From Euprymna scolopes (taxonomy: Eukaryota): DNA of 64,000 bases. Positions 18,645 to 60,200 of this stretch are shown one piece after another. The notes beneath the pieces are model-generated. The model saw only the letters and a list, made by a program, of their open reading frames with translations, was not told the origin of the DNA and did no database searches. The stretch lies in assembly GCA_053919585.1 (NCBI GenBank), contig CM132804.1; one strand, given 5' to 3'. Made by a program: the position numbers and the translations under genes. Numbering within the stretch: the stretch's first letter is position 1; each line of letters starts with the position of its first letter.

Positions 18645-21626
18645 TTTCTCTTTTTATTAAATTTTCACTCCAAATAAGGCGCATTGCCACTGTGGTGTAG
18701 GGGGCTACTATCAGGGGCAGCAACTACTGAGCCACTATGTTGGGATTTAGGCAGCAAGATGTCAGTTCAGGTTACACTTGAACTTCTGCATGTCAGTACA
18801 GTTGTGGCAGCAGGAAACTGGAATGGCATTCCAGAGTCAAGCGCTTCTGGGGAAGAAACTACCAGAGTAGAAATATCTTCTACATCTATGGATCTCTACT
18901 GTGTGGGGGTGGGATTTAGCTGCCTGTCGGGTTTGTTGAGGATGTCTACGTCGTGGGGGCACAAGTGTCTGCAGTTCGCCTGAGCATTCACCATTAAAAT
19001 ACTTGTAGAACAGGCAGAGGGGTGCAACGTTTCGTCGATTGGACAGAGGCTGGAGCTTAGATACCAGTTCAGGGCCTATCAGATTGCCCACTCTCTTTTG
19101 AACCTTGTCTAGGAGCGAGAGACTAGCAGCAGATGCGCCAGCCAAAATGTGACAGTAATACTCCATACATGGGAGAATGGTCGTCTTATAGAGGTACAGG
19201 ATACTTTCAGGTGTCAGTAGTTTTCTAGAACGGTAGAAAGAGCCTACCTTCTTCGCAGCGGCTCTGGCAATGTTTTTAATATAATTGTTTCAACTTATGT
19301 TTTCTGTGAACGTTAGGTCAAGCAGTTTGAAAGATGTACTCTCAGAGAGGGAGTCACTGGCCATTGCTATTTGTGGCAGAAAAGGATTCTTGTAATTATT
19401 GAAGAACACTAGTGTAGTTTTGGCAGCATTGAATGTGACCATCAATTTTTGCCCCCATTCCACTACAGATTGGCTGTCATCCTCTAGTGTTTTTGCCATT
19501 TCTTTAGTTATGTGTTCATTTGTTTTCCTCTCATGCCTATTATAGAGTGTGGTGTCGTCAGCATATATATCCATCTCAGAGACAGTTTTGTCGGGGAGGT
19601 CATTAATAAATATTAGGAACAATAGAAGCCCAAGGATAGACCCCTGAGGCACTCGCGCATTTATATCACACTGTTTGGATATACGACCGTCGAGGACAAC
19701 CTGGATTTTACTTTTATCTAAGAAGGATTTAATTATGTTAAGTATTCTACCAGTTATACCGTATGATCTGATTTTCCTGAGGAATTCCTCATCCCATACC
19801 TGTCAAAACCCTTAGATATATATAGAGCTATCGCTCTGCCTTCTCCCGCTTTGTCCAGTGAATGGTATATACGTTCAGAGATTACAGTGAGGATGTCTGC
19901 TGTGGAACGGGCTTGTCTAAATCCAGATTTTTGGTCGGTCAGAAGTATAGCATCTGTAATGTGACGGACTAAAGTATGGTTAATTATGGTCTCAAATATT
20001 TTGGCGAAAAGTGGGAGAAGGCTAATGGGGCGATAATTTAATGGGTCAGTTCTTTCGCCAGAATTCTTGAATACTGGTACCACAGAAGCAGTTTTCCAAC
20101 AGCCAGGAAAGCATGATTCATGTTGGAGAGTTTGGAGAGAACTGGAGCTACTTCGGCGGATCACTTTTTTAATAGCATATCTGGGATGAGATCAGGTCCT
20201 CATGCTTTTGAAGTGTCAAGGTATTTTATGATAGCATGTACCCGAGCAGGGGCGATTTTTAGATCGTCTAGCGTGGCGTCTGTCCGCAAAGGAAAGTCAG
20301 GCATAGGGTGGTTGGAAGTGTCCAGTGTGGAGTTTGAGGCAAACCGACTGGCAAGCATATTAGCCTTGTCGGTTGCTGAGCAAACAACGTCGTGATTGAT
20401 GGTTAGTGGAGGAATTGTTGATTGCCCATTATTTACTACACTGTTGTAGATTTTCCAGAAGTCACGAGTTCCTAATTTTTGTACTTCGATGCGTTTTTAG
20501 TTCAGTAAATTCTCTCTTAGCTGTCGCTAGTTCTTTCTTTACGTTACTTCTAGCTTCTATATACTTATGTCTGTTTGAACTGGACTTATGTCGGTTAAAT
20601 CTGCGGTATGCATGCTGCCTTTGAGCAATGGCAGTTGCGCAAGTAGAAGTAAACCATTGGGGAGAGTGGGGATTGCTATAAATTTCAGCATGGGAACATA
20701 TGCTTCAATTTCTGTTTTTAACCATTCAGTGGTCCCATTTTCGCACTGTTCAGCAGGAAGAGAAAACATATTTCCCCATGGGACATATCTGATAATATCT
20801 CTGATGGCTTCCCAGTCAGCCTTTTTATAATATCTCGTTGTTTTGAGCACTGGCTCTTCAGTTGTGGGTCTAGAGTGTAGGACGATTTCGACCATTATCA
20901 CTGCATGAACAGCGTCCCCGAGTGGGCTGTCAGCATTTGTTATGCCATCCTCGGGAACTTTAGTCAGAAACAGATCTAGAAGTCATGCGTGTCAGTTGGA
21001 AACGTAACCATTTGTGATAGGGAGTGAGATATAGCGAAGCTATGTGTTGTGCTGTCCGCTGTATCTGTGTGAGTAGAGAATCCAAGCCAGTTTTTGTGGT
21101 GAACATAAAAGTCCGCAAATACATGTACTTGGGCGCTAGTGTCGAGGGAGAGTGCTGTGGCTATGCTGTCAGAGACTTTGTTTATTATGGTGCAGTCCTG
21201 GGTCGAGGGAGAGCGGTAGAGAAAATAAAAGTAGATTATGTTATGTTGTATGTTAAGTCTAAAGCACATTAAGACTCGGTCGTCCGTTTCTAGGGTTGTT
21301 TCTTTAGTTAGGGAGGGGGTGTAACGAATGTAGACTCCAATTCCGTGCATATGTCTGTCAGAGTCCTTACGGCAGAGTGGGAGATAGTCAGGCATGTTAA
21401 AGTAGTTAGAGGGGATTGGGGAGTGTAGGTTAGTCTCGCTTAGTGCTAAGATATCCGGGGTATTTGTTAGGAGAAATGCTTCAACATGAGCTAAATTAGT
21501 TCTAAGCCCACGGATGTTAGTGACTGCAAGCATCAAGGGAAGAGGCAAGTTGATGTGTTTGTCCCTAGGCCTGGTTTAAGCTTATTATTTTATTGTACTG
21601 TCATCATGTTTTTAAAGAGTTTCAGT
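18641..21626 (-). mobile_element. CR1/L2-group LINE, complete but decayed ORF2 (APE endonuclease + RT)
   Basis: APE domain 'LAVTNIRGLRTN...DILALSETNL' (20976-21548). RT blocks 'WKTASVVPVFK..DPLNYRPISLL', 'GFRQARST', 'PQGSILG..LFLIFINDLP' and 'YADD'. C-terminal 'MEYYCHILAGA'. Several frameshifts. The A-rich tail at ~18641 abuts (TA)n. Confidence 0.95.
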
Positions 21627-27900: not shown

Positions 27901-28970
27901 CCCTTGTCGAGGCGAGTCTCACTTAGGGCTGCGATGTCTACCTTATAGCGGGCAAGCTCCCTTGCTACAAGAGCAGTTCTTCCCTCGGGTCGGTCAGCTC
28001 TGGTGTTGTCGAGCAAAGTACGAACATTCCAGGATGCTAAGGTAAGCACCAACCCTTTATTTCTCATGTCTCGACCGCTGTGAGAGAAACCCCGCCAGCC
28101 GCGGTATGCTGGCCAGGGGTGATGGTGAAGCAGCTATGTTTAGGGTTCCTTTTATCGCCCGTCCTCATGCTATGGAGGTGAGCAGAGTAATCCTGAAAAG
28201 GACTGTTCGCTCGGCCAGCCAGTTGCCTGCACCCCCTCACTGCTTCGGTCGAGTCGAGTACGACCAGTTTCTGGGCCGCCTGTGTGCAGGTTTGCAGCTA
28301 CAGCTCCCAGTGATTTCCACACCTGTTGCTTTGCCGCTCGCCCATCGCCACAGGGTTTGGTGTTGACGCAATGTTTGACACACTGACTTGCGCTTAATTT
28401 GGATTATAGCGAAGGGGACTTGTGCTGCATCAACCTCACGCTCTCGTCCTGACCCGCCCAATTCCAACGGCAAGACATAGTCGAGACGGCTGGGGACGGA
28501 CAAGGTGCAGGAGCTGCCGAAGGGAGGCAAGTATGTCGTCCAACCGCCTAAGGGGGCCCACTCCGTCGTTTTTGTACGGGTTGCTCCCCTAGCCTTATCC
28601 ATTTCCATGGCTCTCACAAGGCAGTGAGGTCATTTGATCCATGGCTGGGATAGGGATTGGTAATGTGTCAGGGCATGTCCACACGTCGGTGGGCCGTAGC
28701 ACAGTCCCTCTGGGACTCCCTACTGTTCCGAGATCCTCTACTGATTCAGCCTGGAGTCGCATGACAACCAGTTACCGTGTGTGACCAGGAGGAGGCACAG
28801 CAGAGGTCTTGATGATGGACAGGCTGTGTACTGGCAGGAGAAGACTTACGCACTCGGCTTCTCGTTACGTGCAAGGCTAGCCAGTGGTGGTTGCTGAGAG
28901 CGAGATGGTGAGTAAGCCAAGACGCTAGCTTATAGCTAACACACTTGCGCGTCACATCACCCTGTGTGCA
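24909..28970 (-). mobile_element. Near full-length decayed RTE-clade (BovB-like) LINE
   Basis: APE domain 'LTLASWNVRTLLDN..RPEGRTALVARELARYKVDIAALSETRL' (27366-28067). RT blocks 'SQCGFRAGSG', 'FVDLTKALDTV', 'NGVKQ..ILAPTLF' and 'LLFADD'. C-terminal C2H2 finger 'FTCPECGRVCRALIGLISHLKTH' (~25020-24950). The 5' UTR is ~900 bp. The element is clearly more GC-rich than its flanks and both ends run into gaps. Confidence 0.96.
28735..28944 (-). ncRNA. HDV-like (nested double pseudoknot) self-cleaving ribozyme candidate in the RTE 5' UTR
   Basis: On the minus strand: P1 5' GUGUGU (28944), a long J1/2, P2 5' CCUCUGCUG, P3 GCC, L3 UCCUCCU, P3' GGU, P1' CACACAC, P1.1 GG, P4 CUGG..GUC/GAC.CCAG, J4/2 GCUGAA, P2' CAGUAGAGG. 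Confidence 0.75.
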
Positions 28971-29555
28971 NNNNNNNNNNNNNNNNNNNNNNNNNNNNNN
29001 NNNNNNNNNNNNNNNNNNNNNNNNNNNNNNNNNNNNNNNNNNNNNNNNNNNNNNNNNNNNNNNNNNNNNNNNNNNNNNNNNNNNNNNNNNNNNNNNNNNN
29101 NNNNNNNNNNNGATATGTTCATCTAGCATAGTGTCAAATGCAAAATCTAGCTATTAGGAATAATTTTCCTCCATTGAATTTGATACGAACTTAACGAATT
29201 TAATTAGCATATTTACCGGAGTTTTGAATATAACACATTTAAGAATAGATTATGTACAGTGCATTGCGTTCTACGTTTACTACTTGAAAACAATGAGCTG
29301 ATCGTCATTGAATCTTCTTAACATAGAAGCATTTGATTTTTAACGAACTCAGTGTATAAGTAATCATTCATGCCCCGTTGTTGGATTAAGTCTGCTGTGG
29401 TTGTAATGTAAATATATTGGCATAGATATTGTCACCTTTACGTTAAACATCTGGTTATAGAAAACAAATTATGATTTCTAGAACGGCAAAAAATAAAGTG
29501 ACATAAGTTAATCAAAGTTTGCAAAATAGTATAATAAAATATGGAATTAAACAAA

Positions 29556-57231: not shown

Positions 57232-60200
57232 CCCCTTTTGGCCTTTAGTGGGGTAATTCTTCCTTGTCCTACCACGTGCCCTAGGTATTTTACCTCGGCC
57301 TTACAAAATTTTCTTTTCGCTATATTTATGGTTAGCGTGGATGATCGCAGCCTTTGGAATACTTTCCTTATTGTTTCGACATGCTCTGCCTACGTGTCTT
57401 CATAGATCACTATGTCGTCTATGTAGGCATCTACATTTGCTATCCCAGCGAGACACGCATTCATTAATCTTACAAACGTGGCCTGCGAGTTCGTCATGCC
57501 AAAGGGTATCACTCGGTATTGATATATTTCCTCAGGGGTAACAAATGCCGATATTTGTTTGGCTCGTTCTATTAGGGGTACCGCCCAATACCCCTTCAAG
57601 CGATCGCATTTGGTGATATATTTTGCTCGCCCTACTATATCTATACAGTCGCCTATTCTGGGAAAAGGATATGAGTCGGCCTTGTTGAGCGCGTTTACTT
57701 TTCGATAGTAAGTGTAAAATCGCACTCTCACATCGGGCTTGTCTACTAGCACGCACTGTGATGGCCACTAACTTCGTACTGGGGTCTATCATCCCATGAT
57801 CTTACATATAGTCTATCTCTTCCTTTAGAACTGCTAGTTTTCTCGGACTTAGGCGATATGGGTGTTGTCTAATCAGTTTATCCTCTTTCAGTTCTACATC
57901 GTGCACTGCTGCATTGGTGCACCTAGGCGCATCTGAGAATAAGTCTCTGTACTCTGAGAGTATTGTTTTTAAACTTTCCTTCGAAGGTGGGTGGGCAAAT
58001 TTGGCATCTAAATTTCCCAAGACCGCTGAGTTGTTTAACTTCCTAGGTGGGTCCTTGGCCACACCGGCTTCCCTCTCAGCGCTGGTCAGTTCCAATTCTC
58101 CCTGGATACGTGGAGCTATCAGCACCGCTTTCTCTTCCGCCCTTCTAAAATATTTTCGCATCATATTAACATGAGATACTTGCGTCTTCTTTCTACGTTC
58201 TGGGGTATCTATTAGGTAGTAAAGGGAGCTAATCTTTTTGGCTACTGCATAGGGTCCCTGGTATCTGGCCTTAAATGCTGGCCGTTTAGGATAACAGTAG
58301 TAGAACTTCCTCCCCTTCTTTGAATTCTCTTTTCATCGTTTTCTTGTCGTATTCGGCTTTCATGGTTTTCTGACTATTCTCTAGGTCATCTCTGGCTAAC
58401 TCTCGCACTTCTGACAGTTTTTGCATTGAAGCCACATATTCCGACATATTGTTCGGCATGGGCTCATCGTTTACCCATCGTTCTTTTATTAGTTTTAATA
58501 ACCAAAAACTAACTCGAATGGGATGAACCCTAGTGATTCATGTACTGCTTCACGCGCCGCAAACAACACGAAGGGAATACCTCTGTCCCACTCGTCATCA
58601 TGTTGCACACAATTTGTTTTTAGCATAGTTTTGAGTGTGGCGTAAAAGCGTTCCAGCGCTCCCTGGGACTGCGGCTGATATGCGCTTGATCTGACGTGCG
58701 TGACTCCTAATTGTGTCGCCGTCTGCCTGAAGATCTTTGATATGAAATTAGATCCTTGGTCGGTCTGCTTGTTTTTGGTAATCCCACCTTTGTAAAGAAA
58801 GTTATCAGGGTGTCTACTATCCTTTTTCGCCGATATAGTCCGCAATGTGATCGCTTCAGGGGATCTGGTGGACGCACACATTATAGTCATTATATATTTA
58901 TGGCCGGATTTAGTTTTAGGCAACGGCCCAACACAGTCGAAAATCACCTGACCGAAAGGTTCCTCCACTGCTGGTATTGGTTTGGTGTGGCGCCAGAGGA
59001 ATCTTCTGGCTGGGGTTTCCTGTCACTTGGCATGTCTTGCATGTTCGACAGAACATTTTCACGTTCCCTATGATTCATGGCCAATCGAAGTGTCTCGTGA
59101 GCTGTTCGTGCATCTTAGTGACACCCAGCTTACCCGCCAGTGGTATCTCGTGTGCAAATTTTTGGCACTCCCTCCCTGTACGCTTTCGGCACCATCAATT
59201 GCTCGCGCACGCTCCGGTCTATCCCCTCCGTCACACTGGGCGGATTCCACCTTCTCATTAATACGCCGGTATTGAGGAAGTATTTTCCTGCCCTGCCATT
59301 GGATTCTTCATTTCTGATCCGCCCAAACAAGGGTTTCAAATCGACATCGTTTCGTTGTTCCCTAATTAGTTCTTTTCGCGGTATTAAAAGATTAGATCGC
59401 AACCCTATCTCTTCTTTTGCTTGGCCCTTGCTTTCTGGTGACCTAGTAGTAGACTTCTCCCTCGTCTTTACAATTGCCGATGCCTTATCTTCTGATGCCT
59501 TGAGTTCCCCAATGGATTAAGATTTCATTTGGCTCGAAGGTTTGATTCGGCTTTTGGCAATGTTGTTATCTACTATCATCGCCACGCCGGCCATAGGTAA
59601 GCTACTAATGACTCCCACGATGATCTCGCCTGATATCCAATCTGATTCTTGGTAAATTTTAACTAGAGGAATTTTCATAGGCTTATCTTCTATGCCTCTA
59701 ATAGTGACTGCCGTATTGAAGGTTGTTTTTATTCCCTTGGGCACGTGGTTCCTTAGCACTAAGGATTGGGATGTACCTGTGTCTCTTAGGATATTGATGG
59801 GCCTTCTCTGGCTCTTCGGGAAATGTATCCTCTCGACGTGAAGTGTGTATACGCCGCTTCTACATTTGCGTGTACCATCAACTATTGTTTAGTTGGGGGA
59901 TTTCGAATTTGTTCCAGGCCTCGCTTCGCCCAACAGTTTGCAGCTATGTTACCCAGCTTCTTACAGTTGAAGCACGCTTACCCTTAACCCCCTGATTTTT
60001 TGTTGGTATGCTCTTGGGATTAGTTAATACGCCTTAAAATCGCCGCCTTGGCGGTTTCATAATCTACGCAGCCCTCTGCTGGGAGCGCAACGTACGACCT
60101 TTGTGCTTTCCCATACAGCGTTTTTTGTAGTAGCATAGTCCAGCATTCCTTCGGCCAGCCCATATTAAGAGCTGTTCTTTCAAAGTGGGCGAAGTAATCG

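What the first reader, a model, noticed from the sequence alone, without database searches (positions are those of the whole stretch)
28735..28944. HDV-like ribozyme with a long J1/2 insert at the 5' end of the RTE element
Seen on the minus strand, in the correct order: P1 GUGUGU (from 28944) pairing with ACACAC; P2 CCUCUGCUG (28806-28798) pairing with CAGUAGAGG (28743-28735); P3 GCC/GGU closing L3 UCCUCCU; P1.1 CC/GG; a P4 hairpin; and J4/2 G-C-U-G-A-A with the candidate catalytic C at 28749. J1/2 is ~130 nt and has its own helix (UUGGCUU/AAGCCGA). Known: HDV-like ribozymes process the 5' ends of R2, L1Tc and RTE retrotransposons, and some RTE ones have large J1/2 domains. Inference: cleavage 5' of G28944 defines the element RNA start. 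J4/2 has one extra nucleotide and the seventh P1 pair is mismatched, so this copy may be impaired.
Basis: partly seen in the sequence, partly recalled or inferred. Interest (0 to 1): 0.72.

Follow-up and report, generated by a model that had tools for sequence, protein, structure and literature searches.

The report
Ribozyme-headed RTE retrotransposon, decayed copy
This is the worn front end of a common jumping gene whose RNA is predicted to fold into a known type of self-cutting ribozyme; the likely cut site is the element's very first base, about 40 bases upstream of where it was first placed, and this copy has likely lost activity.

Summary
Real HDV-like ribozyme fold, wrong cut site, wrong defects. 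The core (P2, P3, L3, P1.1, P4, C28749) is at the stated places and heads an RTE-type LINE family (146 exact core matches). But 57 of 60 pattern-chosen copies extend 5' of 28944 and none ends there. The P1 partner is the element's first 7 nt, GUGUGUG (7/7 pairs), which falls in the window's N stretch. A sister family starts at GUGAUGU with P1' ACAUCAC (four compensatory pairs; 33 of 40 copies start at that G). Terminal P1 is 97.6% paired across four families, the 28944 site 65.9%. J4/2 is a normal 5 nt; the extra U is a P2 bulge. The real lesion is private: L3 G25-equivalent to C at 28788 (44 of 45 siblings keep G). J1/2 is about 170 nt with covarying helices. Cleavage was not shown; RNA reads were too sparse. 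HDV-like ribozymes at RTE 5' ends are known, and this scan noted similar cases on other DNA. One small twist: the GT-repeat P1 leader seeds (GT)n tracts at 5' junctions.

The parts
28976..28982 (-). Likely true P1 5' strand (GUGUGUG); predicted cleavage 5' of its first G. Reads N in the window. This copy has a 9-nt GT leader (28982-28974); the family mode is 13 nt, which would put G1 at the 28986 equivalent
   Evidence: L001, the genome's own copy of this place returned; family leader length; 7/7 pairing
28963..28975 (-). Small 5' hairpin of J1/2 directly after P1 (7 bp in 13-nt-leader copies, 3 bp predicted here)
   Evidence: Predicted in A, B, C, D and L286; 91.5% of cells paired
28955..28961 (-). 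5' strand of the basal J1/2 helix (P1.2-like), pairs with 28817-28811
   Evidence: 4 of 7 pairs with two-sided changes, 89% paired; coordinates
28938..28944 (-).
28831..28884 (-). Conserved J1/2 sub-domain: stem 28884-28880 / 28835-28831 enclosing hairpin 28862-28839 with a conserved 14-nt loop
   Evidence: 93.8% paired each, 3 pairs with two-sided changes; also seen in L286, L308, L331
28811..28817 (-). 3' strand of the basal J1/2 helix, followed by an invariant AAGA linker to P2
28797..28806 (-). P2 5' strand (10 nt)
28784..28796 (-). P3 / L3 / P3'; C28792-C28791 form P1.1; C28788 sits at the G25-equivalent position (family G)
28777..28783 (-). P1 3' strand CACACAC
28775..28776 (-). GG of P1.1
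   Evidence: invariant in 13 of 13 distinct rows
28751..28771 (-). P4 hairpin
28746..28750 (-). J4/2 GCUGA with candidate catalytic C28749
   Evidence: GCTGA in A and C, GCTAA in B and D
28735..28745 (-). P2 3' strand with bulged U28744
24934..28133 (-). Decayed single ORF (APE endonuclease, RT, C2H2 finger): 4 frame segments and 6 stops against the stop-free 1095-aa frame of sibling L101
24909..24933 (-). Start of the short 3' UTR; siblings end about 20 nt later in an (AAG)n tail

Best explanation
This is a decayed copy of an RTE-type LINE whose first 250 or so bases are predicted to fold into an HDV-like ribozyme that likely cuts the element RNA out of read-through transcripts at the element's first G, and this copy is likely inactive because it carries C in place of the conserved L3 G. 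Shown: the fold's elements, their covariation across four families, and that family 5' boundaries coincide with the terminal P1 strand. Inferred: cleavage itself (5' of G1, C28749 as general acid, Mg2+ at U20-G25, by analogy with HDV), that the structured J1/2 brings P1 and P2 together as in drz-Agam-2-1, and loss of activity in this copy. In families A, C and D the P1 5' strand is a GT repeat that belongs to the element, not to the target.
For: Family: 146 exact core matches against 0 for the reversed control. 57 of 60 A copies extend 5' of 28944. Nine copies with a non-simple TSD of 7 nt or more ending within 20 nt of the leader's end give leaders of 7, 12, 13, 13, 13, 15, 16, 16 and 19 nt (four further calls at 29-67 nt were left out as likely spurious). 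Family B: 33 of 40 copies start exactly at GUGAUGU, the complement of its P1'. Family C has GUGUGUG then a spacer A, which fixes the register. On alignment A1 (13 distinct rows) the core is 96.1% paired, with 7 pairs changed on both sides (0/500 shuffles); slid controls give 30-48%. J1/2 helices: 91.8% paired, covariation 0.305 vs 0.169. Outside relatives L286 and L331 also pair 7/7 at the terminal site. G25: 44 of 45 siblings keep G. G25A gave no cleavage in 60 s (PMC13635239, passages). In PMC3386971 (passages) only four listed mutants of this pair stayed active and eleven were inactive, so U/C is among the inactive by subtraction. Loss of this G coincided with inactive R2 ribozymes (PMC3774820, section 12).
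Against: No cleavage was observed: the two raw RNA runs gave 14 and 77 reads on A and 10 and 83 on B, with no pile-up of ends, and some reads and contigs run through the B junction. P1 covariation rests on one contrast (B against A/C/D), and cells count sequences, not events. In A1, family B is out of register by one column in P2 and two in the 5' helices. J1/2 folding energies are not unusual (z -1.2 to +0.8). Rfam hits none of the four family representatives. The internal site also pairs 6/7 in A and B and could compete. RTE membership was not tested on a tree.
Confidence: 0.82

Rival explanations
1. Cleavage at G28944 with a 6-bp P1 defines the RNA start.
For: 6/7 pairs in A and also in B; duplex -6.8 against -8.8 kcal/mol for the terminal site; the heptamer is only about half paired inside J1/2 at most positions.
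Against: 0 of 60 copies end there; 65.9% paired across families; 3/7 in D, L286 and L331; cutting there would drop the conserved 5' hairpin and the 5' strand of the covarying basal helix.
Confidence: 0.05
2. The fold is real and selected, but the 5' end is set by transcription initiation at G1; the structure serves translation or protein binding and does not cut efficiently.
For: No cleaved ends seen in sparse reads, and read-through RNA exists. IRES-like roles are described for such ribozymes (PMC6765202, passages).
Against: Catalytic C, L3 U/G and P1.1 are kept in all four families while helices covary; the 5' boundary tracks the P1 partner base for base. Capped starts were not tested.
Confidence: 0.1
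3. The (GT)n at the 5' junction is target DNA borrowed into P1, as 28S sequence is in many R2 ribozymes.
For: Copies often sit in simple repeats (17 of 52 A 5' flanks against 19 of 320 background); R2 precedent (PMC3774820).
Against: The leader lies inside unique TSDs; 12 of 14 copies with tracts of 15 nt or more have no GT run in the 3' flank; GT targets are 6 of 44 in A against 1 of 36 in B, p = 0.12.
Confidence: 0.03

Closest known systems
HDV-like ribozymes at the 5' ends of RTE-clade LINEs (Ruminski et al. 2011, not held; seen only as cited in PMC3774820, PMC6765202 and PMC5786205)
   Same: Double-pseudoknot core at the element's first base, upstream of an APE-RT ORF; cleavage site coinciding with the 5' junction is stated for RTE in PMC3774820 (Discussion).
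   Different: Different host and family; P1 is a GT repeat in three of four families. Whether the paper lists similar elements could not be checked.
drz-Agam-2-1 (PMC4908430, abstract, introduction and early results read)
   Same: Large structured J1/2 with a basal helix, short linker and long P2 (10 bp here, 12 bp there).
   Different: Here an extra hairpin follows P1 and J1/2 is 170-240 nt; no Rfam drz-Agam match; rate enhancement untested.
R2 ribozymes (PMC3774820, abstract and three sections read)
   Same: Same core; cut site set by whichever 7-mer pairs with P1'; P1 strands 23 to over 700 nt apart; L3 G loss marks dead copies.
   Different: R2 borrows target 28S sequence in many lineages; here the P1 5' strand is element-borne and insertion is not site-specific.
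RTE elements as microsatellite progenitors (PMC2887409, abstract; PMC6007223, passages)
   Same: Short 3' UTR ending in a simple repeat ((AAG)n in A, mostly (ATG)n or (ATGT)n in B); association with microsatellites.
   Different: Those concern 3' tails; here a second repeat is carried at the 5' end as part of P1.

Membership tests
HDV-like ribozyme | Nested double pseudoknot P1, P1.1, P2, P3, P4 in the right order | tested here: met
HDV-like ribozyme | Compensatory changes in the helices | tested here: met
   P1 4 pairs (one family contrast), P2 2 pairs plus the terminal pair, P3 1 pair
HDV-like ribozyme | Catalytic C in a C-N-R-A J4/2 | tested here: met
   GCTGA or GCTAA in all four families; the consensus wording is recalled
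HDV-like ribozyme | L3 U20-G25 reverse wobble, family level | tested here: met
   44 of 45 A siblings found by BLAST keep G; B-D were found by a pattern that requires it
HDV-like ribozyme | L3 U20-G25 reverse wobble, this copy | tested here: not met
   C at 28788; so this copy is filed as a decayed member of the family, not as a working ribozyme
HDV-like ribozyme | G1 of P1 coincides with the element 5' end | tested here: met
   B 33 of 40; A modal 13-nt leader; not met for 28944
HDV-like ribozyme | Match to an Rfam HDV-type model | tested here: inconclusive
   No match for the window or L101, L172, L191, L212; a long J1/2 would defeat these models, and short-J1/2 relatives L306 and L291 match below gathering
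HDV-like ribozyme | Mg2+- and C75-dependent self-cleavage | not testable with these tools
   reads too sparse
RTE-clade LINE | Single ORF with APE endonuclease and RT | tested here: met
   1095-aa stop-free frame in L101 with Exo_endo_phos and RVT_1
RTE-clade LINE | Very short 3' UTR ending in simple repeats; TSDs | tested here: met
   definition from PMC2887409 abstract
RTE-clade LINE | RT phylogeny groups with named RTE/BovB elements | not tested
   Homologues carry no clade labels

The most novel reading that the evidence does not exclude
Because P1 is a GU repeat, the ribozyme can cut in several registers along a (GU)n leader, so the element writes and lengthens its own GT microsatellite at each new 5' junction: a ribozyme that breeds microsatellites. 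Extra GT upstream of G1 occurs in 20 of 52 A copies against 3 of 59 B copies (p 1e-5), mostly without GT in the target; ordinary slippage after insertion explains this equally well so far.
Probability: 0.2. Interest if true: 0.5.

Novelty: new member of a known kind. Interest (0 to 1): 0.3.

Why it matters
It adds a set of natural large-J1/2 HDV-like ribozymes (four families in one genome plus outside relatives) that Rfam misses, with a natural P1 swap showing that the element's 5' end follows the P1 partner. These are ready substrates for testing the peripheral-domain activation described for drz-Agam-2-1 and for asking what the conserved J1/2 loop does. If register-slipped cleavage is real, it gives a 5'-end route for microsatellite birth. 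The window's own copy is an ordinary dead insertion.

Tried and rejected
Rfam at gathering and E up to 10: nothing. Whole-region and J1/2 fold energies: not distinguishable from shuffles. RNA reads for cleaved ends: two lays on 2 raw single-cell runs and 2 contig sets, too sparse, no verdict. Searches for more families with other P1' or L3: 1, 38 (control 38) and 6 hits; no new family among the 25 loci and the one unfamiliar locus that I read. Only the first 100 of 277 and of 313 hits were listed, so rarer families may be unseen. GT target preference: not significant. T at -1 in 26 of 33 B copies may only reflect AT-rich targets; not used. Homologue search gave no clade label. Paper searches listed no paper on mollusc RTE ribozymes or on a repeat-based P1; the key paper (Ruminski 2011) and Webb and Luptak 2011 were not held, so absence from print is not established. 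The taxon word was a guess.

Full report
Setting. The finding lies on the minus strand at the 5' end of a LINE of about 4.1 kb. The window copy holds APE and RT remnants in four frame segments with six stops against sibling L101, whose stop-free frame of 1095 aa carries Exo_endo_phos, RVT_1 and a weak C2H2 finger. Siblings end in a short 3' UTR and an (AAG)n tail (49 of 60 had the 3' end in range). This is the RTE anatomy given in the abstract of PMC2887409; I did not test the clade on a tree. The genome is 5.9 Gb; RNA runs that hold the element are labelled mollusc or invertebrate.

Observation. All named pieces are at the stated places. A descriptor of my own finds this single core in the window, against 0.013 per shuffled window; it needs L3 relaxed, because with G25 required the window has no hit. 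Rfam and fold energy say nothing.

Where copies start. The canonical core has 146 exact matches in the genome, control 0. I fetched 60 of the first 61 listed (two neighbours share one locus), which were chosen without regard to their 5' ends: 57 extend 5' of 28944, 0 end at 28941-28947, 3 stop further in. The shared sequence continues into a GT leader. Non-simple TSDs place the leader inside the element with a mode of 13 nt (9 copies: 7, 12, 13, 13, 13, 15, 16, 16, 19; four calls at 29-67 nt set aside). That explains the misplacement.

Sister families. Looser patterns found family B (P1' ACATCAC; 277 hits, 43 in the control) and families C and D (clusters). B begins sharply at GTGATGT, the exact complement of its P1': 33 of 40 copies start at that G (two of them with one internal change), 1 at base 2, 3 slightly further in and 3 are truncated or rearranged. 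C begins with GTGTGTG, a spacer A and a hairpin, which fixes the register: 7 nt P1, 1 nt, hairpin, the same 13 nt as in A. On alignment A1 the terminal P1 is 97.6% paired with four two-sided changes; the 28944 site is 65.9% paired. Two outside relatives (L286, L331) pair 7/7 at the terminal site and 3/7 at the internal one. Caveat: the P1 changes come from one contrast, B against the rest, and B's internal site still pairs 6/7.

Corrected anatomy. J4/2 is GCUGA (A, C) or GCUAA (B, D), five bases. P2 has 10 pairs, unbroken in C and D and with a bulged U in A and B; the innermost pair is U-A or C-G. So the 'extra nucleotide' is a family-wide P2 bulge. J1/2 is 173 nt in A (169 here), 195 in B, 207 in C, 175 in D. 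It holds a small hairpin after P1, a basal helix ending at an invariant AAGA linker, and an inner stem with a 14-nt-loop hairpin; these are 91.8% paired with covariation 0.305 against 0.169 in shuffles, though I derived them from these same sequences. J1/2 energies alone are not unusual.

This copy. It differs from its siblings at 28788, the G25-equivalent of L3: 44 of 45 distinct BLAST-found siblings have G, one A, none C. G25A abolished visible cleavage at 60 s in a nematode HDV ribozyme (PMC13635239, passages). In a full scan of this pair four named mutants stayed weakly active and eleven were inactive, so U/C is inactive by subtraction (PMC3386971, passages; trans-acting antigenomic construct). 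Loss of this G went with inactive R2 ribozymes (PMC3774820, section 12). With the broken ORF and about 90% identity to its closest siblings, this is an old dead copy. Impairment is inferred, not measured.

Mechanism. Shown: fold elements, covariation, and 5' ends that follow the P1 partner. Inferred by analogy: read-through transcripts are cut 5' of G1, freeing element RNA with a defined start, which reverse transcription copies into the observed 5' junctions; the structured J1/2 likely brings P1 and P2 together as in drz-Agam-2-1 (PMC4908430, first part read). RNA data gave no verdict: 14 and 77 reads on A, 10 and 83 on B, no pile-up of ends, and some read-through across the B junction.

The GT leader. 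Extra GT upstream of G1 is seen in 20 of 52 A, 5 of 22 C, 3 of 11 D and 3 of 59 B copies (A against B p 1e-5, A against C p 0.28). Of 14 A copies with tracts of 15 nt or more and both ends, 12 have no GT run in the 3' flank, and GT targets are not clearly enriched (6 of 44 against 1 of 36, p 0.12). So the element seeds GT tracts at its 5' end. Slippage after insertion is the plain reading; cleavage in slipped registers is the bolder one and is untested. Copies also favour simple TA/TG flanks (A 17 of 52, B 12 of 59, background 19 of 320).

Known and new. Ribozymes at RTE 5' ends are reported (Ruminski 2011, not held; cited in PMC3774820, PMC6765202 and PMC5786205, passages), as are J1/2 spans of 23 to over 700 nt in R2 (PMC3774820, Discussion) and microsatellites from RTE 3' tails (PMC2887409, abstract). 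My paper searches listed nothing on a repeat-based P1, but the key paper and its supplements could not be seen. Earlier scan notes on other genomes describe similar RTE-headed ribozymes (unchecked); none was on file for this genome. Verdict: real fold, corrected cut site, decayed copy, new member of a known kind; interest 0.3.

Noticed in passing
L373-L412 (family B copies): 20 of 36 family B copies with both ends are 721-1077 nt, internally deleted and still ribozyme-headed; the other 16 are all 3881 nt. The short forms have many different lengths. Bipartite RTE derivatives are known (PMC5786205).
   Followed up: partly
L158, L165, L175, L391 at the family B 5' junction: Some copies carry a tandem duplication of the element's first 7-20 bases upstream of G1, which in family A would read as a longer GT tract.
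   Followed up: no
L185, L194, L201, L240: Other decayed HDV-like cores with short J1/2 and no APE hit in the three tested; L201 has a weak Rfam HDV-type match (E 0.037). L185 and L201 share a short upstream motif that I recall as resembling the 28S R2 target; not verified, and no long ORF followed.
   Followed up: partly
L291 and L292 (one 1352-nt metagenome contig): The same short HDV-like ribozyme occurs at both ends in direct repeat, as a circular or tandem unit would give; Rfam E 0.006-0.02, below gathering.
   Followed up: no
L306:1178-1247 (-): Compact HDV-like ribozyme with short J1/2, Rfam HDV-F-prausnitzii E 5e-4.
   Followed up: no
window 28852-28844 and equivalents in C, D, L286, L308, L331: The 14-nt loop of the inner J1/2 hairpin is conserved in sequence while its stem covaries; a candidate tertiary contact or protein site.
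   Followed up: partly
L015, L019, L021, L099, L121, L123, L187, L197: Several family A copies are inserted into other copies of the same element, in either orientation.
   Followed up: no
window 18760-21575 (-), 48126-51050 (-), 57802-59022 (-): A second decayed LINE (APE, RT) with no HDV-like core in my scan, Helitron remnants (PIF1, Helitron_like_N) and LTR-type integrase remnants.
   Followed up: no
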